From Squalus acanthias (lineage: Eukaryota), in contig CM059449.1 of NCBI GenBank assembly GCA_030390025.1, forward strand, positions 35,030,001 to 35,094,000: 64,000 nucleotides of DNA, given 5' to 3'. Below, piece by piece: positions 15,911 to 62,600 of this stretch. A model generated the notes under the pieces. It made no database searches and had not been told where the DNA came from. It was given only the letters and a program-made list of their open reading frames with translations. Every line of letters starts with the position of its first letter. Positions within the stretch are counted from its first letter, which is position 1. Both the position numbers and the translations under genes were made by a program.

Positions 15911-15926
15911 AGCGACTCCCTGAAAC

Positions 15927-34530: not shown

Positions 34531-34566
34531 GACTTTTCAATTATTTCCCTACCCTAATAATTAGAG

Positions 34567-35439: not shown

Positions 35440-35840
35440 TTTTTTTAATCGTGTTATGGAATGTGGGCGTCGCTGGCAAGACCAGCATTTATTGCCCATC
35501 CCTAATTGCCCTGGAGAAGGTAGTGTTGAGACGCCTTCTTGAACCGCTACGATCCGTGTGGTGAAGGAACTCCCACATTGCTGTTAGGGAGGGAGTTCCA
35601 GGATTTTGACCCAGCGACGATGAAGGATCGGAGATATACTTCTAAGTCAGGATGGTGAGTGACTTGGAGGGGAACGTAGAGGTGGTGGTGTTCCCACCCG
35701 CCTGCTGCCCTTATCCTTCTAGGTGGAAGAGGTCGCGGGTTTGGGAGGTGCTGCCGAAGAAGCCATAGCGAGTTGCTGCAGTGCATCTTATAAATGGTAC
35801 ACACTGCAGCCACGGTACGGTGGTGGAGGGAGTGAATGTT
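35440..35840 (-). mobile_element. 3' end fragment of a non-LTR retrotransposon inserted in the GPCR pseudogene
   Basis: AAVCTIYKMHC...LRQHLPNPRPLPPRR...SFIVAGSKSWNSLP, a typical LINE ORF2 C-terminus. Confidence 0.7.
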
Positions 35841-40727: not shown

Positions 40728-40765
40728 TTACAAGCTTTCGGAGCTGTCGCCCCTTCCTCAGGTAA
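40728..40765 (-). ncRNA. Minimal hammerhead ribozyme motif (core intact)
   Basis: UUAC-CUGAGGA-A-GGGGC GACA GCUCC-GAAA-GCUU-GUAA. Confidence 0.75.
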
Positions 40766-41378
40766 AGTTACAACGAGTGAATCTACAATATTTCACAGTA
40801 TATAAACACAGAAACTGCAGAGATACAATCTTTCAGGGAAGGTGTCCTTACATCAAAGACACACCAAGAGCACAGCCAAGACAATGAGATGTGTCACAGG
40901 GGGTCCAACTTGTCAAATCCTGCTGTCTGCAGTTTTTTTTGTGTTTGTTTTTTTTGTGTTTTTTTTAAAAACTGGAAAGACAGACAACGATGTCGAGTCA
41001 CGTTCTGCGGGTTAGCGTTCTCCAAGGCGGCCTTCGAAACACACGACAACGCAAAATCATCGAGCAGAAACTGATAGCCAAGTTCCGCACCCATGAGGAC
41101 GGCCTCAATAGGGGTATCGGGTTCATGTCACGCTACAGTATGCGACTCGACATCGTTGTCTGCCTTTCCAGTTTAAAAAAAAAACACAAAAAAACAAACC
41201 CCCCCAAAAAACTGCAGACAGCAGGATTTGACACGTTGGACACCCTGTGACACATCTCATTGTCTTGGCTGTGCTCTTGGTGTGTCTTTGATGTAAGGAC
41301 ACCTTCCCTGAAAGATTGTATCTCTGCAGTTTCTGTGTTTATATACTGTGAAATATTGTAGATTCACTCATTGTAGCT

Positions 41379-41417
41379 TTACCTCAGGAAGGGGGCGACA
41401 GCTCCGAAAGCTTGTAA
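41379..41417 (+). ncRNA. Hammerhead motif with a core mutation (CUCAGGA), probably inactive
   Basis: TTAC-CTCAGGA-A-GGGGGCGACAGCTCC-GAAAGCTT-GTAA. Confidence 0.6.
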
Positions 41418-42360
41418 TTTTAAATAAATCTGTTGGACTATAACCTGGTGTTGTGCGACTTCTCATTTTTGTCCACCCCAGTCCAACGCCGGCATCTCCG
41501 CATGATGAGGTTACAGATTGAGGTGGAATACAATTCTGGTGCTGCAGATGGCCCACAGCGCCTCATGCATGCCCAGTTTTGAGCTGCTAGAACTGTTCTG
41601 AATCTATCCTATTTAACACGTTGGCAGTGCCACACAACACGATGGAGGGTGTCCTCAGTGTGAAGAGAGGACTTCGACTCCACAATGATTGTGCGGTGGT
41701 CACCACTACCAATACTGTCATGAACAGATGCATCTGTGACAGGTAGATTGGTGAGGACGAGGTCAAGTGGGTTTTGCCCTCGTGTTGGTTCTCTCACCAC
41801 CTGTCACAGGCCCAGCCTGGCAGTTATGGCCTTCAGGACTCGGCCAGCTCGGTCAGTAGTGGTGACACTGAGTCACTCTTGGTGATTGGCATTGAATTCC
41901 TTCACCCAAAGTACATTCTGTGTAACTTCTAGCCTCAGTGCTTCTTCCAAGTGATTTTAAACATGGAGGAGTACTGATACATCAGGTGATGGAGGGCGGG
42001 AGCTAATAATCAGCAGGAGCTTTCCTTGGCCATGATCGACCTGAAGCCATCCGACTTTGTAACAGTGAATCTCTTGAATTCAACAAAGTGGGAAGTTGAC
42101 GGACTTCAGAGTTTATGAGGCATTGTTTTATTGTCTTTATATACTTGTCCCTTCAAATAAAAGATGCTTTAATATTCCCCAGTCATCATCGAGTGTCAAG
42201 TCATGTGCATTAACATTCCAACCAGGCTGTCCTCTTCAACACACAACTGCTTACTTTTCTGCTTAATTAATTTTCAAACACGGTCTCGGACAAAGACAAA
42301 GAAAACCCCATCAAGCTTATATGATGTATAATTTTACACAGACTGATGATCTGCACAGTT

Positions 42361-43123
42361 GGCCCAAAAATTCGGCCGTTCCCGGGTGAGTACACAGTCC
42401 GTACTCACCCGTATTCATTCCCGAAGTGCCGGTTTCCTGCATGCATTGCGCATGCGCGGGAAACCGGAACTTCCGGTATGGTGAAGTGGGCGGTTCCTAG
42501 GTGAACCGCGTACGCACTAGAGGCTGCGCGCTTGCAGCACACTAAGATTTTTTTTCCGGTTTCAACGGGAGGGTAAGTATTGAAGATTCTACGCTAATAA
42601 AAAGGAGGCGTAAGACCACTTTTGAACAAGGTAAGTAGTTAATTAAGTATAATTTTAATTTTTTTTCAACAGGTTTATCTTTTTTAGATACTTTAAAGAA
42701 AGGTAAGTTTATTTTTATAACTTTTAAAAAGTATTTTAATTTTTTCAAAAATTAAAATTTTTGTTTAAAGTGGTTAATTTATTTAACTATAGTTATTTTA
42801 TAAATGTGATGGTTTAAAAAAAAATTATTTGAAGTTTAGCTGTTCTTTTGGGGCCGATTTCAATTCACAGATTTGATAGGTCTCCTGTCAAATCTATGAA
42901 TGAAAGATGGTCTGCTGCCATTGGCTCTCCATGGCCCACGTGATTCCAGGGGTCGCATCGCACTAACTGCGGCCCTGGAACACGCAAGCACTGCGCGCCG
43001 GCTCTTGGGTGAGGCCCAGGACCTGAAGTTCCTGTGGGCCCAAAACACAACAGCAGGCATGGTGGGAAAGAGCGCACGCGATCCTTACCCCCGCGGCAAG
43101 CCGGCCACGCGAATTTCTAGGCC
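42361..43123 (+). mobile_element. Harbinger-type MITE, copy 1
   Basis: Imperfect TIR GGCCCAAAAATTCG / CGAATTTCTAGGCC; colinear with 44704-45426. Confidence 0.75.
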
Positions 43124-43279
43124 AATGTCATCACTACTATGGGAATAATCGAATTGTCTTAAAGAAACTTCATGATCATGTACGAACGTATGACGAACAT
43201 TTTTTCTTCAATCCTTCCTCTATCAACGGGCAAAATCATTGCAAAATATCCGTGCTCAGTAGCAGTGAATATGACTTGC

Positions 43280-43437
43280 CTCAATCTGTTTGTTCAAATG
43301 AATGTAACTAACGCTAATCATTATGTAATGCTCATGTGTCACTTGAGGTTTCTCTCAGGTATAAATAAGAACTTATTTTGAAAGCAGAAGTTCTGCGAGT
43401 CCACAACACTAACAGACAACGTCGCTTCTCTCCGAAT
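43280..43437 (+). promoter_or_regulatory. GPCR promoter conserved with 56208-56365 on -, containing a TATA box
   Basis: AATCTGTTTGTTCAAATGA...AATCATTATGTAATG...TGTGTCAC.TGAGGTTTCTCTCAGGTATAAATA is shared by both paralogues. Confidence 0.7.
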
Positions 43438-43507
43438 ATGGGACAGCCGGTGATCATACAGATAGAGAACATTTACTATCCTATTCTTGCAATAGTTGGT
43501 CTTCCTG
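43438..43507 (+). CDS. Orphan GPR139-like exon 1 (MGQPVIIQIENIYYPILAIVGLP)
   Basis: Near-identical to exon 1 at 56138-56207, with donor CCTG|GTAAG. No + strand exon 2 was found in the window. Confidence 0.8.
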
Positions 43508-44703
43508 GTAAGCCGCTTATCATCAGTTAATGCTCATTTTTAACAGTGCTTCACTGCTGTCGGAGTAATGATATTATTTGTTTGCTTTGATGTGTTTTAT
43601 TTGCAGACAATAATTACCGGCATCAAAAAAATCACTCAAAATGGCTTCAAGTTTCTGTCATATTGTTAATGTACCAACCGGAGTGGAAGCTCTTTACTCT
43701 GACTATTTAAATTTATCAATTTAGTGAAGAACCCTTGGCCTTGACAGACAGTCTTGCAGTTCTGTATCTGGTACAAGTATTGGTATCGGATCGAGTAGCC
43801 ATACCAGCAATTCTTAAAAGGATTCACGGGGGCTGCTCAAGAAAAGGCAAAGGAGTTTTTAAATATATATTTGTGAATCCAGGAGAAATATAAGAGATCC
43901 TCCCGCACACACAAAAACGCTCTGGCGCAATATTGGCGTATTGTCGCCTCACCGGGATTGATTCCCGCCCGTTGCCAGATCAGCGCCGGCGCTGATTGAT
44001 TCCCCGCGCTTCCCAACCGGGAGCAGCTCCGGGCGCCCTTCTGGCGCATTCAGCTGGCCAGCAGCGTGTGAACAATGCTGAAAGCCGAGCCACAGGCGCT
44101 GAAATTGATCTTCCTCAGCAGCGCGAGACGGAGTTGGAGCGAATGGGTCGCTCATTTTACACCCAGTCTGATATCCGTTTACATTGAGGTCAATGGAAAG
44201 GGAAATCGGGCGCATTGTAAAGCAGACTGCCTGTGAGCTATGAGCTCATTTCAGGCGACTGGCGAAGACCAATTTTACCCCTGAATCTGGCATGTCTTAC
44301 GTGGAGAACACATTTTGGGTGCAACTCGAATTTTCCGGTGCATTTATACTATAACTATAGACTATAGTGTAGATTATGGTCTTTACCACCTGAACATTTT
44401 GAATTACTTTGGTGGAGCGCAGAGCGGTGCAGATGAAGTCAATGGAAATGTAATTTGTGCAAAATGGTCCGCCAATTCGCTATCGCCAGTTTTATACCAC
44501 CATCGAAGACCAATTTACGTCCATGGTCACTAATTTTCTGACTAGGGACTGGAGCAACGAATTTTACACTGCAACTTACTATGGAAATCCGTGGGTGTAT
44601 GTGTTGGTGCCAGGCGAGGTCATTGATCGCGGCAACTGCTCAGTAATTGCCTTTATAGTGAAACCCGAAGCGCTTGATTAATTCTGAAACTGTGCGTTAT
44701 ATT

Positions 44704-45426
44704 GGCCCAAAAATTAGTCCCGCTACGCGAGAGTACGCACTGTGTACTCTCGCGTATTCTGTCTCCAATTGCCGGTTTTCTGCATGCACTGCGCATGCGC
44801 TGAAAACCGGCACTTGGTGAATGGAAAAGGGGGCGGGTCCTAGGTGAACCGCGTGCGCGCTACAGGCTGCGCGCACGCTGTGCACTTAGTGGTTTCAATG
44901 CGCAGGTTAGGACGGAAGATTTTAGAAATGAAAAAAGGAGGAGTAAGACCCACTTTTAACAAGGTAAGTAGTGAATTAAGTATTATTTTGAATTTTTTTT
45001 AACAGGTATATCTTTTTTAGAGACTTTAAAGACAGGTAAGTTTATTTTTATAACTTTTTAAAAGATTTTAAATTTTTATTTAAAATGGTTAATTTATTGA
45101 ACTATACTTATTTTATTAATGTGATGGTTTTTTAAAAATTTAATTGAGGTTTAACGGTTCTTTTGGGGGGCTATAGTATTCATAACTTTCACAGCACTTA
45201 TGTGAAAGTTATGAATGGAAGATGGTGTGCTGCCATTGGCTCTAACTGAGTCACGTGATCCCACAGCTCGCACGAATTAACTGCGCCGGTGGGATACGCA
45301 AGCCCAGCACAGCAGCTGTCCAGAACATCAAGTTCGTGCGAGCTGGAACTGAAAAAGCCAACGCGGAGTGAGAGATCGCGGGGAGGCCTTACCCTCGCAC
45401 GAAGGCTTCCTCACGAATTTTTGGGC
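44704..45426 (+). mobile_element. Harbinger-type MITE, copy 2
   Basis: GGCCCAAAAATTAG ... CGAATTTTTGGGC; homologous to 42361-43123. Confidence 0.75.
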
Positions 45427-46698
45427 ATGTATACTTAAAAAAAATTGAGTCCGTTGGACAATATTGAACTTCAATGTGATACAAGTGTTTACAATGATGG
45501 AAGTTTGGAAAAGGATAGATATAAGCTGTATGTTTCAATAGTTGAGTGACCAAGAATGAGAGGAGTCATCGATAGAAGATTAAATGTAAGAGATTTAGAG
45601 CAAAGTGAAGCAGGAAGTTCTGTACATAATGGTTTGTAAGGCTGTGGAAATCAGTTGCAGGGTTAGTGTTTGAGGCATAAACAGTGTCAACATTCAAGTC
45701 TAAATTGTACAGGTGGATGATGAAATATCACACAATACTGATATGGTAGGTGCACAGTCTTAGTCCAGTGACAGACACGAATTGATGTTTAAGAAAATTT
45801 GAAGGTGTTTGACGTTTCCTATTAAAAGAGCAGGTACCGAGTGACACAATTGGATTGTCCAACACCATGAAGGCGATGAGCAAGTTTATTCAACCTAATT
45901 ATTCTATGTGGTGAACATTTCAAATTTCATGTTACATGTAGAAAGTTTGCAACTTGAGAGCAAAATATCAGGTCAGGCAGGAACTGTCACTGAAAGGATC
46001 AAACATCCGTGGCATAATTTGAAAGAGTCGCCAGTTGAAGGGAATCGTCAGCAGTTCAACAGATAACTACGCATGTTTTTGACGGAATGAGGAGGATCAG
46101 CGACAACCTACATATATGTTTCTGTAATTGATTTTCTTAGTTTCTGCAAAAATGTGTGTTTGATCCAATCCTATAACGCCTGTCTTATACTACAGGCAGA
46201 CGTTACTATTAACCCAATAGCAAAATACTGCGGATGCTGGAAATCTGAATCAACAACAGAAAAAGCTGGAAGCATTCAGCAGGTCAGGCAGTATAGTGGA
46301 GAGAGAAACAGATTTAACTTTTCAGGTCGATGACCCTTCGTCAGAACTGGAAAAAGAACACGGAACTAATTTTTTTCTCCCCTTGTCCAGTCTCTTCTCA
46401 CCTACATTTGCGACTCTTCTGACGTCCTCCGCCATTTAAACATTTTGCAATTTACTGGCCCCAACCGTCTCATTTTCAGTATGTACATCCAATCCCTCTA
46501 CACCTCCATCCCCCACCAGGACGGCCTGAGGGCGCTCCGCTTCTTCGTTCAATAGAGGCCCAAACAGTCCCCATCCACCACCGCCCTCCTCCGTCTGGTT
46601 GAACTTGTTCTGATGCGGAGATGCCGGTGTTGGACTGGGGTGGACAAAATTGAGAGGTCGCACAACACCAGGTTATAGTCCAACAGTTTTATTTGAAA

Positions 46699-46736
46699 TC
46701 ACAAGCTTTCGGAGCTATCGCTCCTTCCTCAGGTGA
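46699..46736 (-). ncRNA. Minimal hammerhead ribozyme motif in the left (inverted) pLTR
   Basis: Reverse complement of 49730-49767. Confidence 0.78.
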
Positions 46737-47176
46737 AGTAAATTGGATACAGAATCGCCAGAGCATATATAGATGGAAAAAAAAGCATGTGTACTTTACA
46801 ATTGCAGACCAATAAATTAAATCATCCTGACTATCTGCCGAGGTGTGATAAAGTTAATTAAGTCAGCCAGGAAGGTACCACATCAAAAGACATAGCAAGA
46901 TACAACTGAGACAATGAGGTGTAGTCGCAGGGGTTCTAACGTGTCAAAAGCTGCCGTCTGTATGTAAAACGAAAAGCTTTAAAAAAAATTTACTTTTTTA
47001 CTGGGAAAATTTTTACTTTTTTACTGGGAATCACATCTGTGAACAAGCTAACGACGACTCGAGTCCGGATCACGTCATGTATCGTGACATAAACCCAAGA
47101 TCCCGATTGAGACCGTCTTCATGAGTGCGGTACCCCCGGTACCACGGATGCAACCACAGGGAAGTCCATCGTCAAC

Positions 47177-49396
47177 TTGTCCGACCATACCCTTCAACCA
47201 GACGAAATCGAAGTTCTCGCCCTAGGGCTCAAGTTCTGCCCAACCACCAAAATGGACCCCATCGGTCTCGCGGCAGACACGGAGGAATTCATCAGGAGAA
47301 TGAGGCTCCGGGAATACTTCCACAAATCCCAAGATGTCAGCAACAAACCCAATGAGACAATCAATGATCCAGAACAGCAGACAGAGGGACTCGCAGTGCA
47401 GCAACCGAAGAAAAAAGAGTCAAACTGGACCCCTCCGGAGGGTCGCTTCCCCAAGCTTGACATGTATGCTCAAGCTGTCAGGAAATGCATCAACGCCAGA
47501 TTCATCAGCCGCACTCACAAGACAGTCCAGAATGTCACCCGAGCACAACGCAACGCCATCCACGCTCTCAAGACCAACCGCAACATTGTCATCAAACCAG
47601 CGGACAAAGGAGGAGCCATCGTCATACAGAACAGAACGGACTATTGTAAAGAAGCATACCGACAACTGGACAACCAGGAACACTACAGACAGCTACCCGC
47701 AGATCCGACCAAAGAACACACCCGCCAACTCAATAGACTGATCAAGACCTTCGATCCAGACCTTCAAAACATCCTACGCGCTCTCATCCCACGTACTCCC
47801 CGCGTGGGAGACTTCTACTGCCTCCCAAAGATACACAAAGCCAACACACCCGGACGTCCTATCGTATCAGGCAATGGAACCCTGTGTGAGAACCTCTCTG
47901 GATACGTCGAGGGCATTCTGAAACCCATCGTACAGGGAACCCCCAGCTTCTGTCGCGACACTACAGACTTCTTACAGAAACTCAGCACCCACGGACCAGT
48001 TGAACCAGGAACACTCCTTGCCACGATGGACGTATCGGCACTCTACACCAGTATCCCCCACGATGACGGCATCGCTGCAACAGCCTCAGTACTCAACATC
48101 AACAACAGCCAATCTCCAGACGCCATCCTACAACTCATCCGCTTCATCCTTGACCACAATGTCTTCACCTTCGACAACCATTTTTTTACCCAAACACACG
48201 GAACAGCCATGGGGACCAAATTCGCAACCCAATACGCCAACATCTTCATGCACAAGTTCGAGCAAGACTTCTTCGCTGCACAGGACCTCCAGCCAACGCT
48301 GTACACCAGATACATCGACGACATTTTCTTCCTTTGGACCCATGGCGAAGGATCACTGAAAAGACTACACGATAACATAAACAAGTTCCATCCCACCATC
48401 AAACTCACCATGGACTACTCCTCAGAATCGGTCTCATTCCTGGACACACGAATCTCCATCAAAGACGGACACCTCAGCACTTCACTCTACCGCAAGCCCA
48501 CGGACAACCTCACGATGCTCCACTTCTCCAGCTTCCACCCTAACCATGTTAAAGAAGCCATCCCCTATGGACAAGCCCTGCGAATACACAGGATCTGCTC
48601 AGACGAGGAGGAACGCGATGGACACCTACGGACGCTGAAAAACGCCCTCGTAAGAACGGGATATGACGCTCGACTCATCGATCGACAGTTCCGACGGGCC
48701 ACAGCGAAAAATCGCATAGACCTCCTCAGAAGGCAAACACGGGACACAACCAACAGGGTACCCTACGTCGTCCAGTACTTCCCCGGAGCGGAGAAACTAC
48801 GACATGTTCTTCGCAGCCTTCAACATGTCATCAATGACGACAAACACCTCGCTAAGGCCATCCCCACGCCTCCACTACTTGCCTTCAAACAGCCGCCTAA
48901 CCTCAGAAGTACCATCGTTCGCAGCAAATTACCCAGCTTTCAGGATAACAGCGACCACGACACCACACAACCCTGCCATGGCAAACTCTGCAAGACATGC
49001 CAGATCATCAACACAGATACCACCATCACACGTGAGGACACTACCCACCAGGTACATGGTACATACTCATGTGACTCGGCCAACGTTGTCTACCTCATAC
49101 GTTGCAGGAAAGAATGCACCGCGGCATGGTACATCGGCGAGACCATGCAGACACTGAGACAACGTATGAACGAGCACCGCGCAACAATCGCCATGCAGGA
49201 TTGTTACCTCCCAGTCGGGGAACACTTCAGCAGTCAAGGACATTCAGCCTCGGATCTGCGGGTAAGCGTTCTCCAAGGCAACCTTAGAAACACACGACAA
49301 CGCAAAATCATCGAGCAGAAACTGATAGCCAAGTTCCGCACTCATGAAGACGGTCTCAATCGGGATCTTGGGTTTATGTCACGATACATGACGTGA
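47177..49396 (+). CDS. Penelope RT + Cys-rich linker + GIY-YIG endonuclease; open frame, 5'-truncated at the inversion junction (~47130)
   Basis: VNLS, KPADKGG, FYCLPKIHK, GRPIVS, MDVSALYTSIP, GTAMG, RYIDD, FLD; PCHGKLCKTC linker; NVVYLIRC...WYIGET..LRQRMNEH...GLN. No stop over 739 codons. Confidence 0.96.
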   Translation: MSDHTLQPDEIEVLALGLKFCPTTKMDPIGLAADTEEFIRRMRLREYFHKSQDVSNKPNETINDPEQQTEGLAVQQPKKKESNWTPPEGRFPKLDMYAQAVRKCINARFISRTHKTVQNVTRAQRNAIHALKTNRNIVIKPADKGGAIVIQNRTDYCKEAYRQLDNQEHYRQLPADPTKEHTRQLNRLIKTFDPDLQNILRALIPRTPRVGDFYCLPKIHKANTPGRPIVSGNGTLCENLSGYVEGILKPIVQGTPSFCRDTTDFLQKLSTHGPVEPGTLLATMDVSALYTSIPHDDGIAATASVLNINNSQSPDAILQLIRFILDHNVFTFDNHFFTQTHGTAMGTKFATQYANIFMHKFEQDFFAAQDLQPTLYTRYIDDIFFLWTHGEGSLKRLHDNINKFHPTIKLTMDYSSESVSFLDTRISIKDGHLSTSLYRKPTDNLTMLHFSSFHPNHVKEAIPYGQALRIHRICSDEEERDGHLRTLKNALVRTGYDARLIDRQFRRATAKNRIDLLRRQTRDTTNRVPYVVQYFPGAEKLRHVLRSLQHVINDDKHLAKAIPTPPLLAFKQPPNLRSTIVRSKLPSFQDNSDHDTTQPCHGKLCKTCQIINTDTTITREDTTHQVHGTYSCDSANVVYLIRCRKECTAAWYIGETMQTLRQRMNEHRATIAMQDCYLPVGEHFSSQGHSASDLRVSVLQGNLRNTRQRKIIEQKLIAKFRTHEDGLNRDLGFMSRYMT

Positions 49397-49729
49397 TCCG
49401 GACTCGAGTCGTCGTTAGCTTGTTCACAGATGTGATTCCCAGTAAAAAAGTAAAAATTTTCCCAGTAAAAAAGTAATTTTTTTTTAAAGCTTTTCGTTTT
49501 ACATACAGACGGCAGCTTTTGACACGTTAGAACCCCTGCGACTACACCTCATTGTCTCAGTTGTATCTTGCTATGTCTTTTGATGTGGTACCTTCCTGGC
49601 TGACTTAATTAACTTTATCACACCTCGGCAGATAGTCAGGATGATTTAATTTATTGGTCTGCAATTGTAAAGTACACATGCTTTTTTTTCCATCTATATA
49701 TGCTCTGGCGATTCTGTATCCAATTTACT

Positions 49730-49767
49730 TCACCTGAGGAAGGAGCGATAGCTCCGAAAGCTTGTGA
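49730..49767 (+). ncRNA. Minimal hammerhead ribozyme motif in the 3' pLTR
   Basis: UCAC-CUGAGGA-A-GGAGC GAUA GCUCC-GAAA-GCUU-GUGA: stem I UCAC/GUGA, 5-bp stem II, palindromic AAGCUU helix III. Confidence 0.8.
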
Positions 49768-51270
49768 TTTCAAATAAAACTGTTGGACTATAACCTGGTG
49801 TTGTGCGACCTCTCAATTTTGAACTTGTTCTCACATAGAACAACTTATCCTTTGACTCCACTCAATTCCTCCAAATTAAAGTTGTTGATATGGGACCCGA
49901 ATGGGCCCTATCTATGCCTGCCCCTTCGTGGGATATGTGGAACATTATTTGTTCCAGTCCTAATCAGGTCCCCTCGCTCATCTCTTTTTCTGTTACATTG
50001 ATGACTGTATTGGTGCAGTTTCCTGCTCTCGCCCAGAATTAGAACATTTCATACAGTTTGCTACCAATTTTCACCCTTCCTTCACCTTCACATAATCCAT
50101 CTCCGAGTTCCCTGCACTTCATTGACATCTTCGTCTCCATTTCTGGGGATACGCTATCGAGAAACATCCACTATAAGCCCACTGACACCCACAACTACCT
50201 GGACTACACTTCCTCCCACCCCGCTCCCTGTAAGGAGTCCATACCGTTCTCTCAGTGTCTCCGTCTCCACCGCATCTATTCAGACGATGCCACCTTCCAC
50301 ATTAGTGCCACCGATGTGTCTTCCTTTCTCCTCAACCGAGGGTTACCCCTCTACCGTGGTTGACATGGCCCTCGACTGCGTCCATTCCATTTCACGCACT
50401 TCTGCTCTCATCCCTTCCCCTCCCTTCCAGAACGACGATAGGGTTACCCTCGTCCTCACCTTTCACCCCACCAGGCTCCACTTTGAACAGACTATCCACT
50501 TTCCCCACCCCTCCCCTTTCAGCATTCCAAAGGGACCGTTCTCTGCGCGACACCCTGGTCCACTCTTCTATCACCCCCAACACCCCTTCCCCTTACCACT
50601 GCAAATTCCCGTGCAACCGCAGGAGATGCAGAAACTGCCATTTCACCTCCTCCCTTTCCACTGTCCAGGGCCCCAAACACTCCATCCAGGTGAAACAGCG
50701 ATTTACTTATACTTCTTGCAATTTAGTACACTGTATTCGCTGCTCACGATGCGGTCTCTAAATTGATGAGAAGAAACGAAGATTGGGTGACCGCTTTGCA
50801 GAATGCCTCCATTCAGTCCATACGTGTGACCCTGAGTTTCTGGTCGCCTGTTACTTAAAATCTCCACTCCGCTCCCACTTTGACCTCTCCGTCCTCGACC
50901 TCTTACACTGTTCCAACGAAGCTCAACGTAATCTCGAGGGACAGCACCTCATCTTTCGATTAGGCATTTTCTGCTTTCTGGTCTCAACATCGATTTCAAC
51001 AATTTCAGACTATAACGTCGGCCCCCATGTTTTCTTTTCTCTCTCACATGGCAGCTGCTGACGATTCTGCCATTGTCATTTACATCTCATCAGAGTCATC
51101 TTTTGTTTCTTAACTTGTCCCATTAGCATCTTCTGTTGCCTTGCACATCATCCCTTTTGTCTTTCAATCTCCCCTGCCTTCCACCCTATCACAGACATTT
51201 CCTTTTTGTTCTTTCCTCCCCTCCTTCCTTTCCCTGCCCCACACTTGCTGAAATATCTGTTACTGTTTCC

Positions 51271-51307
51271 AGTCCTGACGAAGGGTCATCGACGTGAAAC
51301 GTTAACT
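51271..51307 (+). ncRNA. Degenerate hammerhead motif of the older PLE (inverted copy at 46312-46348)
   Basis: AGTC-CTGACGA-A-GGGTC ATC GACGT-GAAA-CGTT-AACT. Confidence 0.6.
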
Positions 51308-51510
51308 CTACTTCTCCATCCACTATGCTGCCTGACCTGCTGAATGTTTCCAGCATTTCCTGTTGTTGTTTAATATTACATACAGTCTGACATCTAATAT
51401 AGAGACCAGATTGCAGCTCCCATCGCCTTCGGAGATTTCTGTGTGTACAGGTGAAGTGAACAACTGATGTGAGGTTCGGACGGATGTAATTGCATTTTAG
51501 TTCTGTGAAG

Positions 51511-52424
51511 TCATTTAAATAATTTGATTAAATTAGTAAATATAGAAATGGGGCTCGTAATCAGATTCTTCAATTCCTCTCTGAATTTACTCTGGGACAC
51601 GGCATAAATAATCGTGTTTGTGCATGAACTCAAATTTCCAAGCATATACCCACACTGTTCCATAATGGCGAATGAGTTGTGGTAATTTGTTTCCAAAACT
51701 TGAACATCTGTAAATTGCACACATAAGTAAAATATGAAAATTACCATCCATAAAAGTATAAAATTGCCTGATATGGCGAACAGTAAAATTATGGATCTTC
51801 TTCGGTTCTCTATCTCTGTATCGTTGTGATTATCCCCACTTTTGTTACCTTGGAGTCCTGTCCTCACTCTATTGGCCAGTAGAATGTGCCTGGCGGTCAG
51901 GGCATTGAGCAGTAAAATCAAGACAAATGGTGCAAAGGGGATTAATATGTTTTCCAACCACAAATATGCTGCCCATAGGGGTGAGGTGTAGAAGCTTGAT
52001 TTCACAGAGCAGTACCATGGTACATTGTCAATTATTTCCCGAGGTTCAAATAAAAAGTAGAATGAAACATTTTGTAAACCGCTTAAGGAACACACCACTG
52101 CTATAACCACAGCCGCAGTCCTTTCGGTGCAATATTTTGTACGCAAACTTTGGCAGCAAATAGCAACAAATCGATCAAAGGTGAAAGCCACAGTTAACCA
52201 GACAGAGCAATCAATGGAAAAAAAATGCAGGGCGATATCGAGACTACAAATAGGAGTATAGTTCATGAATGAAAAAGGGAAATAAGCATCTTTAATATGT
52301 GAGAGAATTACACCAATTATCATTATCAGGAGATCAACCACTGCCATGGCCACCAGGTAACGGGTGATGCATTTGGAGAGACCGCATTTTCCACGGGAGA
52401 GAATCACAATTGTCATCAAATTAG
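51511..52424 (-). CDS. GPR139/GPR142-like class A GPCR, exon 2 (intact; 327 aa with exon 1)
   Basis: Acceptor TTGCAG| gives A-NLMTIVILSRGKCGLSKCITRYLVAMAVVDL...SVWLTVAFTFDRFVAICC...FVLILLLNALT...RRRSIILL...SCTNTIIYAVSQSKFR, a 7TM pattern. Exons total 70+914=984 nt. Confidence 0.92.
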
Positions 52425-55400
52425 CTGCAAAAAGGAGGAAATGTCATTACTACATCTCCTGATATTGAGAGGAAGATCAGTCGACAGTGCTTTGTCTGAA
52501 AATCCATGATCATTTTCTGTCACTCCACAGTGTATCCCTATCTTACTCCAACACCATCGGACAAGATTAGCAATTCTGACAGGATACATTGCTATATCGA
52601 TACACACCACAACATTATTCTGTGAGTTACTTTAAAAAAACGAAAATCTGCTGTGAAACTCGCGGGTATATTTCAGCTTTCACAGGGCCGAATCTTGCCT
52701 GGCGCCCGTAATAGCATCTGCCTGATTTTAATTTCAATTGACTTCATCAGAAAGGAATCTCAGGCTGGGTACAAGGAGGGCGACCGACTTGCTCATCCCT
52801 GACACTCCATACACATCGTCGTGGTTAAGTTTCCAACTGTCTTTCCTTCCTTAAAACCAACATTGCGGATCCACTAGTCGACAATAATAGGCGACAGAAC
52901 CGCAACGCCAGTTGTAAGCCAAACGTCATGTTGAAAATGTGCCCCAACATCTCATCAATTAAAGCCTCCTAAATAATCATGCAATAGAGGATTCACTGTG
53001 ATAACATGATTCTGACTGCAATATTCCATCGCTCTGGTTTCTGGAAGCAGGTGAACATTACTCTAAGGGGTTGATCACGTGCTTTTCTCAGGAAATAAAA
53101 AAACAAATTACGATTTCTCAGCGATACATTGATCATGTGCACCATATAGCAGCAAACATTTCATTCTGGATTGTGCCTTAACTAAGTACCCCTAGAGTCG
53201 CACACATCCCAGCAGCCGGTTAAATGGTGGAGTTACATGGGGTCCAAGCATGGGCGGAGGGAACTTTGGAGATATATCAGAGATGTGTCTGGTAAAACAA
53301 TAAAATCGCAGTTATTATTAGAAACTTGGCTGCTGGTATGGATCTGACAGGGCCATTTAGAAATGCATTTGAAATGTAGTTTTTCAATAACGTGGATGGC
53401 TATTAATATAAACGGGAGGCTCTGAATAGAAAAGCTGTTCTTTGCAAACAAGAGCTTGTTCGTATTGGGCGGTAATGCGCATGATATTCACTTTCTTAGA
53501 CCAATAGAGCCTAATATCGGGAGGGGCATCACGTACGATACAGAACAAGAATTTCTACACGTAGACAATGGTGGCTGCCTGAGTAACCTCCTTAAATCAT
53601 TGCTCAGCTATTTATCCCTTATGCATTTCAAACTGTTTCTTTTAAATCAGGTATAATTATTGACCCCGTTTGACAACATGAAAACTGTTCTTAGGCCTCC
53701 ACCCTGAGCCGAATAATATAAAATGCATTAGCTCTTGTATCAGGTCCAAATCCCTGTTAAGAGTGGATATTTAAGCTTTGGGATAGGTGGCGTTTACAAA
53801 CATGGAATTGAAAACTCCTGTAACCATAATGACAACCCATATAACAACCATATCACAATTTAACTATTCACTGTTGGGGCTTGATGTGCAACACAATATT
53901 AGTATTGCCTCTAGTTTCTGTGAAAACAGTATGTTTTAAATCTATCAACAGATGGATTAAAGTATATTATTGAGTGGTATTAATTATCTCCTGGTTTATG
54001 AGACGGGATTAAAGGACCAGTAACAAAGAAAATTATTTTCACCATAACCTCCTGGCCGAGAATCTGAAGAACGGGTGGCCTGAAGCCTGCCGCCCTTTCA
54101 TCCCACTGCTGAATCTCCCCTTCAGAGCTGTGTCTTCAGCGACACTTTTGGGGAGAATTTCTGGGAGGAATCCGCTGATCTCCTGTGGTAAGTTCAAACC
54201 TTTAAATCATTCCTCCCGGTTATTCAGGATCTTCTATCAAAGGTTTGATGGAAAATCGGGAGAAGTCCCGCGAAATTTCTATTCCTGACACTCTATTGCT
54301 ACTATGCAAATAAAACTTGGGGTAGATTGTAGTCTTAACCGCCTGGGCATTAACCATCGCCTGAATTTTTGTGGGTAGAAATTGGCCTTGGGCCGTACCC
54401 GTAAACGGAATCTATTGCATGGGGCGCCTGTTATACGCTTCGCTTTATAATCAGTTCTGTTTAAGTTAATGGAACTGAACATCGGGCGTGGAGCGAGAGG
54501 CAGACACGATACAACCGTTCTACCCCTACATGTAGAAAGGGAAATCTGACGGCTATTATTACGGGTAGTAACAGAATTCACCGGATTTTTTTTCCATTGA
54601 CAGTGATGGACGTCGATCTGCTGTTCTGTTAGGGAAGCGATAACATCCGGAGTATTTTCCTTTCCGTGCCTACCTCAGATGATGCAGAAAGTCCCGGACA
54701 TAAAGATTACAATCTATCCCATATTTTCTGGAGAAATCATCAGGTGCAGCAACTTGGCATTAGAATTACAACACCACAGCATTAGTTGGACTCGCTTTAG
54801 TATCGCTTGACTGACATCATTTGCGGAGTCACAGTAATAATTGGCTCCAGCTGAATGCAGGGCGGGTTTTCGCTCCGAGTGTCAGCCGTTCGTTAGGTTT
54901 GCAATTGGTCATAGACTTTCTGTGGGGTTTTGCACTGGAAGTTCCTGTCAGCCAATAATCAATAAAGCGCAGCGCCCTCTACATGGCCTCTGGGACCTGT
55001 GTGAACAGGACGAGCAACTGTGTATCTTTTAACCAAACAGATTGAAGAATAATTTCTGAGCAGCGCAATGTCTGAACCAGGAAGTGTGCGATAGTATTCA
55101 ATTTCAAACCAGGTACAGAAGCGAAACAAAGAAAGGGAAACAAAGATTGGATTAAGAGAGAGAGAGAGAGAGAGTCCGAAAAGAAACAGAAAGCAAAAGT
55201 TAAAAAAATCTTTACTCTCCAACAATATTTAATAGCTAAAGAAATGAGACTCCACACTTTCAAATTTAGCTTTCCGAGCCAGAGACGTTGTTTGACAGTA
55301 ATTAGGACATGCCACGCCTTTAAAGGGGCACTTACACTGGTAGGGACAAGCGGTGCCTGTTCCTGGAGAGTTTAGTCCGTATCTATGGGGCAAGTACAGT

Positions 55401-56137
55401 AACTTCGCACAGTTGAATACATTTCATTGGTGATTCAGACGGCGAGATGACGTTTTCGGTTAGCTCTTGGAGGAGCGGAGCATCTCGGACAGCAACTTCC
55501 GGATATCAGCGTTTAACTGCGCACGTGTGGTCGCCAGATTTGCTGTCCAATTTGCACACAAATAACGGGGATTGCTATTATCCTCACAATCTTTTCGCAA
55601 CAAAATACAACTCATTTTAATATATCACACAGTCTCAGAATCTGCAGGAATTCGCTATAAGCACAAATTTTGCGACTACTTTCCAGCAGGCAATGACCTA
55701 GCGCGGCATCAACATATAGCGGCCATTTATTTATCAAGTACGTACAGCATCCTCACGCCATTCAATGTATTTGAAAGGCGAGTCTCTAGGCGAGAGATTA
55801 TAATTGCGCAGCCTTTGTAGCAGCAGGGCATCATGGACAGCAACTCCCTGATTTCCGCGCTTAACTGCACACGTGTGGTCACTGGAATTTTCTGTCGGAG
55901 TTCACTATAATACGATGAGCGCTGCTAGCGTCACCATTATTACTGCCGCAAATTCCAGCCCAAGAGGAAGATGGCAGAAACTTGGAGCATTTTATTTTAT
56001 TTCTTTGATGGCAGTAATCAATGCCCGCAAAACAAGCACATCAAAACAAAGAGATGATATTATTAGATCGACTGCAGCAGCAGTGATACAGTTCAACAAT
56101 GTTAAAGATGAACACTATCTGATTATAAGCGTCTTAC

Positions 56138-56207
56138 CAGGAACACCAATCACTGCAAGAATAGGGTAATAAATGCTTTCTATCTGTATAATTACCGGCT
56201 GTCCCAT
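56138..56207 (-). CDS. GPR139-like GPCR exon 1 (MGQPVIIQIESIYYPILAVIGVP)
   Basis: ATG at 56207 and donor CCTG|GTAAG; the phase-1 join gives TM1 IGVPANL. Confidence 0.88.
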
Positions 56208-56365
56208 TTTCGGAGAGAAGCGAGCTTGTCTTTTCGTGTTATGGACACGCAGAAATTCTGTTTTCAAAACAAGGTCGTATTTATACCTGAGAGAAACCTC
56301 AGGTGACACAAGACCATTACATAATGATTGACATTAGCTGCAGTCATTTGAACAAACAGATTAAG
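56208..56365 (-). promoter_or_regulatory. GPCR promoter with TATAAATA ~75 bp upstream of the ATG
   Basis: Conserved with 43280-43437. Confidence 0.7.
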
Positions 56366-56839
56366 ACAAATTGGGTTGACTCCTATTGGCCAGGGAGTAG
56401 GACACCTTGCAATGATATTGCCCAGTGAAAGTGTAAGGAGGCCAGGATAATAATCTCATCATTCGTTCCAAACAGAATATTTCGCCATCTCCACTTCTAC
56501 ACTCATGGTACCAATCTCTTTAAATTGAGTATATTAATTTATAGCTTCATACAAGGGGATTTGAAGTTTTAAATGCACACATTTGTGGCATATTAGCTTC
56601 ATCTAGATGTTAACTCCAGCAAGATTTGTCTTGGTCTGCTTTAACTTATATTAAATCTAATTTACATTCAGGGGCTCCTGTGGTGCACGTGTGATCGAAG
56701 AACATTTACATATAAACACAAAAACTGATATAATCAGCAGCAGGCATCTAATCAGCCCCATAGATATGCAGAGAAGTTGGAATTTTGGAGGTATTAACAG
56801 ACTTTGCACAGAGGTAGAAGAAGTTATAACAGTGAGAAT

Positions 56840-58560
56840 CTTAGAATGATACAACAAGTGCCTGTGCCGGCTCTTTGATAGAGATTTCAAATTAGATTCA
56901 CTCCCCTGCTGTTTCCCCATAGCCCTGCAAAATGCTCCCTTCAATTATTTATCCAATTCACTTCTGAAAATTATTATTGCTTCTGTTTCCACCACCCCTT
57001 CAGTCAGTCTATTCCAGATCATAACAACTCGCTACGATTCCCCCCTGCCCCGCCCCCACCTCATGTCGCCTTTGCTTCTTTTGTTAATTACTGTAAATCT
57101 GTGCATCTGTTTATCGACCGAGCTGCCAGTAGAAACAATTCTATCTTATTTAGTCAAAGAAGTAAACTTTCATGATTTTTAACAGCTTTATCAAATCGCC
57201 CCTTAGGATCTCTGCTCTAAGGAGAACAACCCCGATTCTCGCGTCATCCACGTAACTGAAGTCTTTCATCTCTTAGAACAATTTTAATGAATCTCATCTG
57301 CACCATCTCTGAGACCTTGACAGCTGTACTGAAGGGTGGATCCCAGAATAGGTGACAATACTTCAACTGGGGCCTAACCAGTGTTGTCTAAAGATTCAGC
57401 ATAATTTGCTACTTTGGTGCTCTGTTCCTCTATTTAAAGAATCGTGGGGCCGGTCCGCCTTTTTAACAACCAGCTGTACTGCAAACACTTGTGTTCGTAC
57501 AGCTCCAGGTCTTGCTGTTCCTGCACCGCCTATTAAATTGTACCATTTAGTTTATATTGTCTGTCCTCATTCTTCCTACTAATATGAATCACTTCAAATT
57601 AATCTGAGTTAAATTTAATTTGCCAAGCGTCTACCTATTTCACCAGTCTATCTATGACCTCTTGAAGTCTACTACTATCCACCTCACTGCTTACAACATT
57701 TCCAAGTTTGGTGTCTCTGCAGGGTTTGGAATTATGCCCTGTATGTCCAATTCCAGCTCATAAATAAAAATCGAATCATGTAATGATCACAGCATCGAGC
57801 CTTGGGGGATGCACACGTCCCTCCAGTCGGAAAACAACCGCTTACCCAAACTCTCTGCTTTCTGTCCTTTAACCAATTTCGGATCCACGCAATCATTGTC
57901 CCTTTAATCCCATGTGCTTCATTTCTGCTAATATGCGGTACTTGATCAAAAGCCATTTAAAGTCCATATACACAACAATAACCGCGCTACCTTCATCCAC
58001 TCACTTCATTAAAGAACACAATCAAGTTAGTCAAATATGATTCGCCTTTAACAAATCCGTGCTGGCTTTCATGTATTCATCCATATTTTTCCAAGTGCAG
58101 CTTAATTTTGTCCCGGATTATTGTGTCTAAAACTCCTCTCCACTCCCTCACATCGACGTTAGGCTGACTGGTTTGTGGTTGTTGGTTAATTCCTCTCCTA
58201 TTGTATTGAGCAGGGGTATCACATTTGCCATCTTCCATATCTAAGGATGAAAGGAAGACTGTGGCCAGAGCCTCCACAAATTTCACCCTTCCTTCCCTCA
58301 ACAACCTTCGATGTAACCGATCCGGACCGGGTGACCTTTGTAGTTTGAGGGATGCCAACCTTTTATGTACCTCCTCTTTAACTATTGTTATCGTATCCAA
58401 TTTCTCTACTGCCTCCTACTTTACTGAGACACTGGCGGCATCTTGCTTACTGAAGACATCTGTAAACTAGTCATTTACTAACTCAGCAATGTCCTCTGCC
58501 TCCACAAAAAGATCTCCTTTTTCGTTCCTAATCGGCCCAGCCTTTCTTTTACTAACCTTT
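56840..58560 (-). mobile_element. Decayed CR1 LINE fragment
   Basis: RSPGPD.LH..LL.E, AFDQVPH, WIRNWLKDRKQRV, and the 3' tail. Confidence 0.85.
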
Positions 58561-59679
58561 TACGACATGGGCAGTTTGTCTGCACGAATGTCATTTGCAT
58601 ATATTTTCTAAAACACTTAACCGTACGTGATCATGGGATTTTATTGTGAGCATTCCATTATTCCCGTAGCAGTGCTGCCATCAACTCTGCAGACCTGGCA
58701 GCCTGTCTAAAAATAGATATGTAATCTGCATGGACTTTCTTTTTTTTCCCGTGACTTTGTTTGGAAATAATTTAAGCAGATAGAAAACTAGTTATGCATT
58801 GAAAAGGACAGTCTGGTTGGAATGTTAATACACATTTATTAGAAATCGTTTGATTTAATCTCTGTGAATCTGGAACAAATAAAGAACCTTTTAGGAGAAG
58901 GAGCCGGTGTCTATAAACATTAAAACATTGTCTCTCAGGCCCTGTCGGCTGTCGACCTCCCACTTTGTTGCATTCAGGGGAAACACTCTATCTTGATAAT
59001 ATTCCACTGCACACATCACGTCTCAGGCTTTACTTCGCTTCAGTTCTGACTGGAGACTGAAATCGATACAACAATTAAATATTTAATATCCACCTCCCTC
59101 GCATGTCAAAAGTCTGTGAAATAAATGACTTGAACCAAAATTGTTTTTCCATATCAAACTGTGTAAGAAATTATCCCTCGGTGGGGGGAGGGTCGGGTCG
59201 GTAAACCCCTTCTGGATGATCATAATATTATTTTAAATTTAATTACTCGGTAACTTGCTGTGTCTTCCGGTTTAAATGTATTATTCAGTCTGTAATTGAA
59301 ATCTGACCATTAGATTAGTCCTCATCTGACAACGTGCCATTTTCCCCTTGTCATCAAATTGAGAGGAATGTAATGAACATCCCACGGGATCTCCAGTTGT
59401 AATCTCATAATTGCTCATCCTGGATACACAAAATAGAGCAAGTAATGGTTCAGTCAGAGCAGAAGCGGAAAATCGCAACTCCTTCGATTTCAACTCGCAG
59501 ACGAATTGCGTTTGTTCTGGGAATGGCAGAAAACAGGCTCGGTCGATTTTAACCGCCGCACCTCATTAGCATGTCTCTCTCAGGTTTCCCAAAGTCACCG
59601 CGAAGTGTCAGGCAGGCCGTTAAAATCGGGCTGTAGGAGGCTGCCACCGGGGCCCAGCGAAACAGTCCCAGCACAAGGT

Positions 59680-62600
59680 AAGAACATAAAAACAGAAGAA
59701 ATAGGAAGTGGAGTAGGCCATTTGAGTCTTCGAGCCTGCTCCGCCATTCAACAAGATCTTCTACCTCAACTCCACTTCCCCGCACTATCCCTATATTTCT
59801 TAATTCCCTTAGTTCCCAAAAAATGTATCGACCTCTGTCTTGTATATACTCAACGACTAAGCATCCACAGCTCTCTGGGATAGAGATTTGCAAAGATTCG
59901 CAATCGCTGGAGTGAAGACATTTCTCCTCATCTCAGTCCTAAATGGCCGATCTGTTATTCTGAGACTGTGACACCGTGTTCTAGATTCCCCAGCCAGAGG
60001 AAACATTTTCTCAGCATTAACCCTGTCAAGTCCGTTAGGAATTTATATGTTTCAATTAGATCATCTCTGAATCTTCTAAACTCAAGGGAATATGGGCCTA
60101 ATCTACTCAATCACTCCTCAAAGTACAATACCCTCATCGCAGGAACCAGTCTAGTGAACTTTCGTTGCACTCCCTCTAAGGAAAGTATATAGTTCCTTCG
60201 GTAATGAGACCAGAACTGTAAATAGTACTCCAAGAGTGGCCTCACCAATGCCCTGTATAACTGTAGTAATATTTATTTACACTTATATTCTAATCCCTTT
60301 GTAACAAAAGCTAACATACCATTTGCTTTCCTAATTGCTTGCCGTACCTGCATGCTAACTTTCTGTGATTCATGTACAAGGACACCCAGGTCATTCTGAA
60401 TGCAAACATTTTCCAGTCTCTCACCATTCAAAAAAAATTCTGCTTTTTGTTTTACTTGCCAAAATGGAAAACTTCACATCCCCACATTGCACTCCATGTG
60501 CCATGTTCTTGCCCACTAAGTCAACCTGTCTATATCTCTCTGCAGCCTCTTTGTGTTCTCCTCAAAGCTTACTTTTCCACCTAACCTTGTATCATCAGCA
60601 AGCTTGGATACATTACACTCAGTCTCTTCATCTAAGTCTGTAATATTTATTGTAAATAACTGAGGCCCAAGCAATGATCCTTGCGGTACCCCACTAGTTA
60701 CAGCCTGCCAACCTAAAAAAGTCATGTTTATTCCTACTCTCTGGTTTCTGTCCATTAACCTATCCTCAATCCATGCTAATATATTATCCCCAATACCATG
60801 AGTCCTAATTTTATGTAATAACTTCTTGCGTGGCACCTTATCGAATGCTTTGTGAAAATCCAAATACACGACATCTCTGGTTCCCCCTTTTACATGCTAC
60901 TAGGTACATCATCAAAAAACTCTAACAGATTTCTGAAACACGATTTCCCTCTCATAAAAACATGTTGACTCTGCCTAATCATATTGCGATTTTCTAAGTG
61001 TCCTGTTGCCACGGCCCTTTTAATAGATTCTAGCATTTTGCGTGATACTGATGTCGAAAATTTACCGTTTTTTCTCTTCCACTTTTCTTCAATAGCTGGG
61101 TTGTGTTTGCTGCCTTCCAATCATTGGGGACTGTTGTAGAATCTAGAGAATTCTGGAAGACTAATACCAGTGCAAACATTATCTTTGCAGCTACCTCTTT
61201 TAAAACCCTAGTATCCAGTTCGTCAGGTCCAGGGGATTTGTCGCTACTTAGTCCCATTAATTTCTCCAGTACTATGGGCCGTAATGTACACGTAACACCT
61301 GATTTTACGAGCTTAAGAGTTTTAAAAAACAGAAAAATGAAATTTTGTCAAAAATGTATACATTTAAAATCTTGTTAAATAAGGTAAGTTTATTTTTAGC
61401 CCGTTTAAAACATGTGAATTTAGTTTGCAACAAATTAAATTTTTGTTTTAAATATTTAATTAAATGCAAGTTTAATTAATATTAAATATGTGTATTTTTT
61501 TAATTTATTTGATGTATAGCTGTATTTTTTGCGGTATTTATAATCATGCTTATGGGGTTTCTGTACATACGGACTCCCCATCAGTATGAATGGTGTTTCC
61601 ATTTTGTCATTCATTTTTCCAGCCCACGTAATCCCAGGGATACTCACAAAACGCCTGCACCCCTGGAATACGTGGGTACCCAGAGAGTCTCCGTGTTTCC
61701 CAAGTACCCAGTTACGTGGGCATTTTAATTGTGGATCGGAGGCATTTCCCTGCAGAAGCCTCCGACCACAAATTCAGGGCCTAATTCTTTATTGTACTGA
61801 TTTCTTTAATCACCTCGTCCTCTATAGATGCTTGGTTCCCCCATTATTTCTGGAATGTTTTTGTAACTTCTACCGTGAATAAAGAAACAATATATATTTT
61901 TTAATGTCTCTGACATTTCCTTATTGCTCATTATAATTTCTTCTAAATTCCTCAGGCTTACTAATTTTATTGGCAACATTATAAGTCTCTTCCTTTGATC
62001 TAATATTATCTTTAACTTCTCTTGTTAGCCATGGTTGGACCACTTTATCTGAAGGATTTTTGTGCCTTAAAGGAATACATATTTGTTGTAAATTATGTAT
62101 TAATTCTTTAAATGTTATCCATTGCTTGTCTACCATCATTCCTTTTAATGCAGCTTCCCAATCTGCCTTAGCCAACTCGTCCCTCATACATACGTAGTTT
62201 GCTTTGTTTAGATTTAAGACCCTTGTTTCGGACTTAACTAAGTCACTTTCAAACTCACTATAAAATTCTACAATATTATGGTCACTCTTCCCTAATGGCC
62301 CCTTAACTGTAAGCTTATTAATTAACCCTTTCTCATTGCACACTACTAGATCTAAAATAGCCTGTGCACTAGTTGGTTCCTCAACATACTGATCCAGAAA
62401 AATATCTTGTAAGCATGAACTCGTCCACCACACTATTACTGCAAATTTGGTTTGCCCAGTCTATATGTAGATTAAAGTCCCCCATGATTACTATATTACT
62501 CTTGTTACATGCACCTCTAATTTCCTGATTTATTCCCTGACCTGCATTACAACTATTGTTTGGGGGCCGAAAACAACTCCCACCTTTGTCTTCTGCACCT

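What the first reader, a model, noticed from the sequence alone, without database searches (positions are those of the whole stretch)
51511..56365. Cluster of divergent two-exon GPR139-like receptors beside MHC class I and TRIM-B30.2 genes: a candidate MHC-linked chemoreceptor family
Seen: one intact 327-aa GPCR, one pseudogene and one extra exon 1 within ~22 kb, which is a birth-and-death pattern. The N-terminus is ~12 aa, DRF replaces DRY, TM6 lacks CWxP (LLWMV), and NPxxY reads NTIIY. Established: mammalian GPR139 and GPR142 are single-copy aromatic amino-acid sensors, and mammalian extended class I regions carry TRIM-B30.2 and olfactory receptor clusters. Inference: this may be an expanded, uncharacterised chondrichthyan amino-acid/peptide chemosensory or immune-sensing receptor family, linked to class I in the way mammalian ORs are.
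Basis: partly seen in the sequence, partly recalled or inferred. Interest (0 to 1): 0.72.

Follow-up and report, generated by a model that had tools for sequence, protein, structure and literature searches.

The report
MHC-resident branch, giant shark receptors
This intact gene belongs to a family of about two thousand cell-surface receptor copies in one shark-type genome, separate from the brain receptor GPR139 that databases name it after; its branch sits in the immune MHC region of sharks and rays, and the family likely works as an overlooked set of chemical sensors, though tissue and ligand are untested.

Summary
Observation confirmed: an intact two-exon, 327-aa class A GPCR, a broken copy and a lone exon 1, beside a class I gene and a TRIM B30.2 exon. 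It is not GPR139: the genome has its own GPR139 elsewhere (24% identical) and a tree test rejects orthology (p-AU 0.0015). MHC linkage is real (1-2 Mb from an RXR/clade-B collagen pair; same interval in sawfish) but holds for one old subfamily, probably a small minority of copies. The class I gene is the non-classical UGA lineage, copied with the receptor in a recent ~48-kb cassette that excludes the TRIM. Off-MHC sets show positive selection in the predicted pocket; the MHC set shows only relaxed constraint (p=0.065). Best reading: a diversifying sensor repertoire; chemosensory versus immune use is undecided, as no expression data were available. I found no paper describing it. The scan has noted the family and its MHC link before, on other DNA.

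The parts
56138..56207 (-). Exon 1 of the intact receptor (short N-terminus and outer half of TM1)
   Evidence: ATG and GT donor; same exon in 22 of 23 distinct paralogous exon-1 loci read
51511..52424 (-). Exon 2 of the intact receptor (TM1 inner half to stop)
52425..56137 (-). Single phase-1 GT-AG intron
56278..56324 (-). Likely core promoter: TATA box (56278-56285) and a TTATGTAA element (56317-56324)
   Evidence: TATAAA in 22 of 23 and TTATGTAA in 21 of 23 distinct copies; the copies were picked by similarity to this stretch, so conservation is biased
43298..43507 (+). Lone promoter and exon 1 (ATG 43438) of a second receptor whose exon 2 is missing here
   Evidence: in the related block at C26:33.80 Mb a same-strand, frameshifted exon 2 follows it
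34972..36272 (-). Receptor pseudogene (exon 2 only; two frame changes, ~400-nt insertion)
13645..26076 (+). Non-classical MHC class I gene of the UGA lineage: leader 13645-13714, alpha1 18005-18265, alpha2 22379-22654, alpha3 22882-23148, membrane exon 25978-26076
   Evidence: open 324 aa; alpha2 best match PDB 9ch4_A E 2e-44, next 5e-15; the alpha1 and alpha3 rows labelled nurse-shark UGA in the supplement of PMC10751288 read the same as 9ch4_A
889..1413 (+). Last (B30.2) exon of a TRIM gene; RING/B-box exon lies about 15 kb before the window
13440..62131 (.). Recently duplicated cassette (UGA, pseudogene, lone exon 1, intact receptor); excludes the TRIM
   Evidence: 95-99.8% identical copies in 4 of 4 blocks examined, all with the same left end at 13440; two reach through the intact receptor
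46611..49819 (+). Young retroelement with a 761-aa reverse-transcriptase frame and 489-bp inverted ends; absent from one cassette copy

Best explanation
This is an intact gene of the MHC-resident subfamily of a very large elasmobranch class A GPCR family, a paralogue rather than an orthologue of GPR139, that likely serves as a repertoire of sensors for outside chemicals in a sensory or barrier epithelium. Shown: gene structure, family size, separate origin, MHC position, near-fixed cytoplasmic face, variable extracellular pocket. Inferred: each receptor binds a small ligand in the helix bundle (the N-terminus is too short to bind one) and all signal through one common G protein. Predicted: the MHC subfamily, which keeps D3.37 (57 of 58), an acid at 5.43 (56 of 58), W6.48 (58 of 58) and Y7.39 (56 of 58) and has lost the R6.51 of GPR139, favours a cationic amine or basic peptide, not free Trp or Phe. 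The link to UGA is likely old neighbourhood plus passive co-duplication, not partnership.
For: Size: 2,050 exact motif matches against 2 for the reversed control; two protein searches returned non-overlapping top lists of 130 and 123 loci; 39 of 70 motif-picked loci have an open exon 2 with acceptor. Origin: own GPR139 on C18, 24% identical; family 100/100, sister to single-copy non-mammalian genes that this genome also holds; orthology rejected, p-AU 0.0015. Pocket: mean entropy at 31 preset pocket sites 1.99 bits off-MHC and 1.10 in the MHC set against 0.58 in the single-copy sister gene, which is at least as divergent overall; dN/dS pocket versus cytoplasmic 0.59/0.24, 1.24/0.27, 1.6/0.15 in three sets; positive selection in the two off-MHC sets (2dL 160 and 32), 11 of 17 sites in the pocket in the larger. 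Passenger link: cassette with one shared left end; most copies off the MHC.
Against: No expression or ligand data at all. The MHC set, to which this gene belongs, shows no significant positive selection (2dL 5.5, p 0.065, no site). In the C1 tandem set only 1 of 6 selected sites is in the preset pocket, and gene conversion can inflate such tests. A catshark top-50 list for brain plus olfactory epithelium held no GPCR (PMC11979771, passage), though that also omits known olfactory receptors. An MHC address kept in both sharks and rays fits an immune role equally well. The count rests on one motif and includes pseudogenes and possibly duplicate haplotypes on unplaced contigs.
Confidence: 0.5

Rival explanations
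1. Immune sensors: the receptors detect microbial or damage-derived peptides on leukocytes or mucosa, in the manner of formyl-peptide or Mas-related receptors, and the MHC subfamily is kept beside class Ib genes because they are used together.
For: Inside the class Ib interval in sawfish, 10 copies in tandem between B2M/class Ib and class Ib/COL11A2, three more near C4 and TRIMs; UGA and a family member on a contig of the same length in 9 of 11 species with a recorded length; 15 UGA-type copies interleaved with the C26 array; kin of peptide receptors.
Against: Most copies and the strongest selection lie off the MHC; UGA co-amplification is explained by a recent cassette; UGA and the intact receptor face each other about 25 kb apart and share no promoter.
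Confidence: 0.28
2. Genomic drift: duplication-prone, repeat-rich regions multiplied a gene whose copies are mostly redundant; number and MHC position carry little function.
For: 31 of 70 motif-picked loci are broken; pseudogene and lone exon were copied along with the intact gene; near-identical copies exist.
Against: Cytoplasmic dN/dS 0.15-0.27 in all three sets and pocket-centred excess of amino-acid change; family kept across sharks and rays.
Confidence: 0.12
3. Reproductive or self-recognition receptors (sperm or conspecific cues), the MHC copies tying cue perception to MHC haplotype as proposed for mammalian MHC-linked olfactory receptors.
For: MHC position; the idea is current for mammals (PMC11800647, start of abstract).
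Against: No direct evidence; population polymorphism and gonad expression not examined.
Confidence: 0.09
4. The gene is the shark GPR139 (or GPR142) orthologue and senses Trp/Phe in the brain.
For: Database names; GPR139 is the best PDB sequence and fold match.
Against: Separate GPR139 on C18; orthology rejected; only W6.48 and an aromatic 3.33 of the four key residues kept.
Confidence: 0.01

Closest known systems
GPR139 and GPR142 (human GPR139: PDB 7vug, 9m42)
   Same: Class A fold, nearest solved structure; both lack the Pro of NPxxY; W6.48 and an aromatic 3.33 kept.
   Different: 21-24% identity; separate clade; H187, N271 and R244 positions not kept; C3.25 and the ECL2 Cys present, P6.50 absent; thousands of loci rather than one.
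Single-copy GPR139-like genes of non-mammalian vertebrates (coelacanth XP_005988539 group; reedfish XP_028654722 group; probably among the GPR210-type sets of PMC6504862, match not checked)
   Same: True sister group (99/97); C3.25 kept and P6.50 mostly lost; this genome holds one clear copy of each (C17, C9).
   Different: They keep a conserved pocket (R6.51, D7.36 in 37 of 37 for the coelacanth group); the family is 26-32% identical to them, expanded, with a variable pocket.
Vertebrate chemoreceptor repertoires (OR, TAAR, V1R, T2R) and mammalian MHC-linked OR clusters
   Same: Works like them in design: short N-terminus, compact genes, tandem arrays, many pseudogenes, variable pocket with constant inner face, one cluster at the MHC.
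   Different: Not a member: only 7tm_1 matched in Pfam, different ancestry, one coding intron in TM1; expression in sensory neurons not shown; lies on the class Ib/extended class II side.
Elasmobranch class Ib lineage UGA (PDB 9ch4; supplement of PMC10751288)
   Same: The neighbouring class I gene is a member.
   Different: Here at least 15 copies on C26, amplified with the receptor array.

Membership tests
Class A (rhodopsin-like) GPCR | Seven-helix fold with N1.50, D2.50, R3.50, N7.49, Y7.53 | tested here: met
   Pfam 7tm_1; these five residues in 126 of 126 open exon-2 copies; model of relative P0009 pLDDT 88, TM-score 0.70 to 7vug
GPR139 orthologue | Groups with vertebrate GPR139 in a tree | tested here: not met
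   (p-AU 0.0015); own GPR139 on C18
GPR139 orthologue | F109, H187, W241, N271 needed for Trp/Phe activation (PMC5430874, abstract) | tested here: not met
   Focal gene F, E, W, Y; none of 58 MHC-set copies has H or N at the second and fourth site
GPR139 orthologue | Single copy | tested here: not met
Olfactory receptor / TAAR / V1R / V2R | Sequence membership | tested here: not met
   Only 7tm_1 at E<=0.01 in Pfam; PDB profile hits are GPR139 and peptide receptors; no OR, TAAR, V1R or V2R rows were put in the trees
Chemosensory repertoire (works like) | Large, clustered, birth-and-death family | tested here: met
Chemosensory repertoire (works like) | Diversifying selection on the ligand pocket | tested here: inconclusive
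   Met for one off-MHC set, mixed for the C1 tandem set, not significant for the MHC set
Chemosensory repertoire (works like) | Sparse expression in sensory cells and activation by outside chemicals | not testable with these tools
   No RNA holder listed; contigs uninformative
MHC-linked gene | Same chromosome and interval as MHC marker genes | tested here: met
   Clade-B fibrillar collagen C26:30.82-30.85 Mb and RXR C26:31.44 Mb, read as COL11A2/RXRB by inference from sawfish order; array at 32.5-38.6 Mb
MHC-linked gene | Linkage to PSMB8/9, TAP, class Ia and class II in this assembly | tested here: inconclusive
   0 of 28 proteasome matches on C26, several on unplaced contigs; class II search rang nowhere; TAP not searched; in sawfish PSMB8 is on the same chromosome
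UGA class Ib lineage (neighbour) | Sequence closest to nurse-shark UGA | tested here: met

The most novel reading that the evidence does not exclude
Sharks and rays, held to have tiny OR, TAAR and V1R sets, carry an unrecognised chemosensory receptor family of the order of a thousand intact genes, built from a GPR139-like paralogue, with an MHC-resident branch older than the shark-ray split: an independent parallel to mammalian MHC-linked olfactory receptors.
Probability: 0.35. Interest if true: 0.92.

Novelty: new variant of a known kind. Interest (0 to 1): 0.74.

Why it matters
Reviews of shark genomes report few GPCRs and very few olfactory receptors (PMC8455134, PMC11979771, passages). A family with some 2,000 loci in one genome, rivalling the elephant's 1,948 OR genes quoted in PMC11979771, hides under an automatic 'probable GPR139' label. 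If sensory, it would bear directly on how sharks smell with so few classical receptors; if immune, it would be a large germline-encoded sensor system in the oldest lineage with an MHC. Either is testable with existing catshark, skate and bamboo-shark tissue RNA data. The MHC-resident branch also adds an unremarked gene block to the ancestral MHC map.

Tried and rejected
Expression: no RNA holder listed; laying three guessed-RNA contig sets and one DNA-like set gave partial exon-2 cover and no exon 1-exon 2 joint among the rows shown: uninformative. The catshark expression supplement could not be read; bioRxiv supplements (the Squalomix tandem-cluster tables) are closed; two UDA/UEA papers are not held. 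These may bear on both expression and novelty. Idea that the MHC is the family's ancestral home: suggested (off-MHC copies one clade, MHC copies basal), but MHC monophyly was not rejected (p-AU 0.49) and adding a deep off-MHC member from C12 gave two sister groups (quick tree, 12 rows dropped): dropped. TRIM as part of the unit: rejected. Class I as UEA or UDA: rejected in favour of UGA. Lone exon 1 as the flipped exon of the pseudogene: unlikely, since a related block keeps its own same-strand exon 2. Class II search gave nothing, also in controls; the bromodomain on C3751 is BET-type but BRD2 could not be told from BRD3. No second motif count was made, so 2,050 rests on one motif. GPR142 was not found by the motif and not sought further. 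Holocephalan members were not examined.
Full report
1. Observation. The gene is as described. Exon 1 (56138-56207, minus strand) and exon 2 (51511-52424) join through a phase-1 GT-AG intron to a 327-aa frame matching Pfam 7tm_1. A TATA box lies 78 bases before the ATG. A broken paralogue lies at about 34972-36272 and a lone promoter plus exon 1 at 43298-43507. The class I gene is open for 324 aa and the PRY/SPRY exon ends a TRIM whose RING/B-box exon lies about 15 kb before the window.

2. It is not GPR139. A motif taken from the GPR139 alignment matched one place in the genome, on C18; that frame is 24% identical to the focal exon 2 and groups with named GPR139 proteins. In a 76-row tree the 51 family rows form one group (100/100) whose sister is a pair of single-copy GPR139-like genes of non-mammalian vertebrates (99/97), then amphioxus genes; GPR139/142 stand apart. 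Holding family and GPR139 together is rejected (p-AU 0.0015). This genome holds one clear copy of each sister gene, on C17 and C9. Of the four residues that PMC5430874 (abstract seen) finds essential for Trp/Phe, the MHC set keeps W6.48 and an aromatic 3.33 but not H187 or N271, and it has lost R244. A fold of a 71%-identical full-length relative (P0009, not the window's protein) gave seven helices with helix 1 from residue 5 and GPR139 first among near-equal peptide receptors. The profile search is not independent, as 3 of its 98 rows were GPR139/142.

3. Size. The focal exon gave 130 of 130 scored hits at 62-100% identity, 72 on C26 between 32.50 and 38.61 Mb and 58 on unplaced contigs. A relative 57% identical to it gave 123 other hits, none on C26. 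One 23-base motif over TM3 has 2,050 exact matches against 2 for the reversed control; the first 100 listed are clusters on C1 and C3-C7. The motif caught 25 of 30 loci in each of two similarity-picked sets. An open exon 2 with acceptor was found in 39 of 70 motif-picked loci (30 given by the search, 40 chosen by me from the listed 100; not random), 58 of 70 score-picked MHC-set loci (58 on C26, 12 unplaced) and 29 of 30. That suggests roughly a thousand open copies, with the caveats that exon 1 was not paired and that unplaced contigs may repeat haplotypes. In public proteins 2,670 of 3,718 candidates pass E 1e-10; all named rows of the top 120 are sharks or rays.

4. MHC link. On C26 a clade-B fibrillar collagen ends at 30.82-30.85 Mb and one of three RXR matches lies at 31.44 Mb, with another class I gene at 30.71 Mb; reading these as COL11A2 and RXRB is inference. 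PSMB8/9 were not seen on C26 (0 of 28 matches). [quoted passage not shown] The class I gene is UGA (lead from an earlier scan note; tested). Of 12 species with a UGA homologue, 11 have a recorded contig length and 9 have a family member on a contig of that length; the basking shark and cloudy catshark did not match. This is a match by length only. In the trees these members group with the C26 genes, with two exceptions (P0116, P0085). The subfamily therefore likely predates the shark-ray split (about 270 My, PMC11979771 passage). Whether it is basal or a sister group is unresolved.

5. Why UGA and the receptor travel together here. 19 of 33 class I alpha2 hits are UGA-type, 15 of them inside the C26 array. 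All four blocks I examined share with the window a segment starting at 13440, 205 bases before the UGA start, at 95-99.8% identity; two run through the intact receptor; none includes the TRIM. Recent co-amplification is thus a segmental duplication that also copied the pseudogene and lone exon.

6. Selection. With 31 pocket sites fixed beforehand from recalled generic class A positions, pairwise dN/dS (pocket versus cytoplasmic) was 0.59 vs 0.24 in 56 distinct MHC-set genes, 1.24 vs 0.27 in 25 off-MHC genes and 1.6 vs 0.15 in 13 C1 tandem genes. My own M1a/M2a code gave 2dL 160 (omega 4.05; 11 of 17 sites in the pocket, 5 in loops) and 32 (1 of 6 sites in the pocket) for the off-MHC sets but 5.5 (p 0.065, no site) for the MHC set. 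Sets were picked by similarity and gene conversion was not modelled. Pocket entropy is 1.99 off-MHC, 1.10 in the MHC set and 0.58 in 37 single-copy sister proteins of equal or greater overall divergence.

7. Mechanism. Shown: a functional-looking receptor under purifying selection on its inner face, in a family whose pocket varies. Inferred: ligand binding within the helix bundle and one shared G protein (GPR139 is Gq-coupled, PMC6367278, start of abstract). Predicted: a cationic ligand for the MHC subfamily, from its conserved acids at 3.37 and 5.43 and loss of R6.51. I put epithelial or olfactory chemosensing at 0.5, immune sensing at 0.28, drift at 0.12, reproductive cues at 0.09. No expression evidence was obtained.

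8. Novelty. Five literature searches listed no paper on this expansion; three were loose and ranked unrelated papers. Passages of PMC11979771, PMC8455134, PMC6504862, PMC12208981 and bioRxiv 2025.06.08.657570 and 2025.02.19.638963 did not mention it; PMC8455134 speaks of a paucity of GPCRs in cartilaginous fishes. Subscription papers and closed supplements were not seen. The genes are annotated in NCBI, under a misleading name. The scan itself has noted the family and the MHC link repeatedly on other DNA; those notes are not independent support. It is a new variant of a known kind of system: a sensor-type repertoire from an ancestor not known to have produced one.

Noticed in passing
P0432/P0433 (little skate gene models): The automatic model runs from the UGA membrane exon straight into the receptor's exon 1, and one isoform fuses class I alpha1-alpha2 to a whole receptor; shows close same-strand adjacency, possibly read-through or an annotation artefact.
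   Followed up: partly
window 46611-49819: Young retroelement, 761-aa RT frame with a C-terminal endonuclease-like part (Penelope-like, label recalled), 489-bp inverted ends 99.6% alike; absent from the cassette copy at C26:33.33 Mb.
   Followed up: partly
L103-L124 (C1:98.88-99.68 Mb): Tandem array of 22 near-identical copies, all on one strand, whose TM3 and ECL2 segments occur as shuffled alternative blocks, suggesting gene conversion; most lack the usual TM3 and ECL2 cysteines.
   Followed up: partly
L276 (C12:90.76-90.86 Mb): Four deep-branching family members with a shorter second extracellular loop, closer to the single-copy sister genes; useful for rooting.
   Followed up: partly
C3751, C3328, C812, C3663, C26:30.71 Mb (L212-L222): Several further class I lineages on unplaced contigs; C3751 also carries a BET bromodomain gene, C3328 and C812 also carry family receptors.
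   Followed up: partly
window 56317-56324: TTATGTAA element about 35 bases before the TATA box in 21 of 23 copies; resembles a PAR-bZIP/NFIL3 site (recalled); sampling biased.
   Followed up: no
window 1-757, 1718-3005, 3875-4241: Three tandem-repeat arrays around the TRIM last exon.
   Followed up: no
window 32669-34344: Open frames on both strands without Pfam match, GC-rich, possibly a transposon remnant.
   Followed up: no
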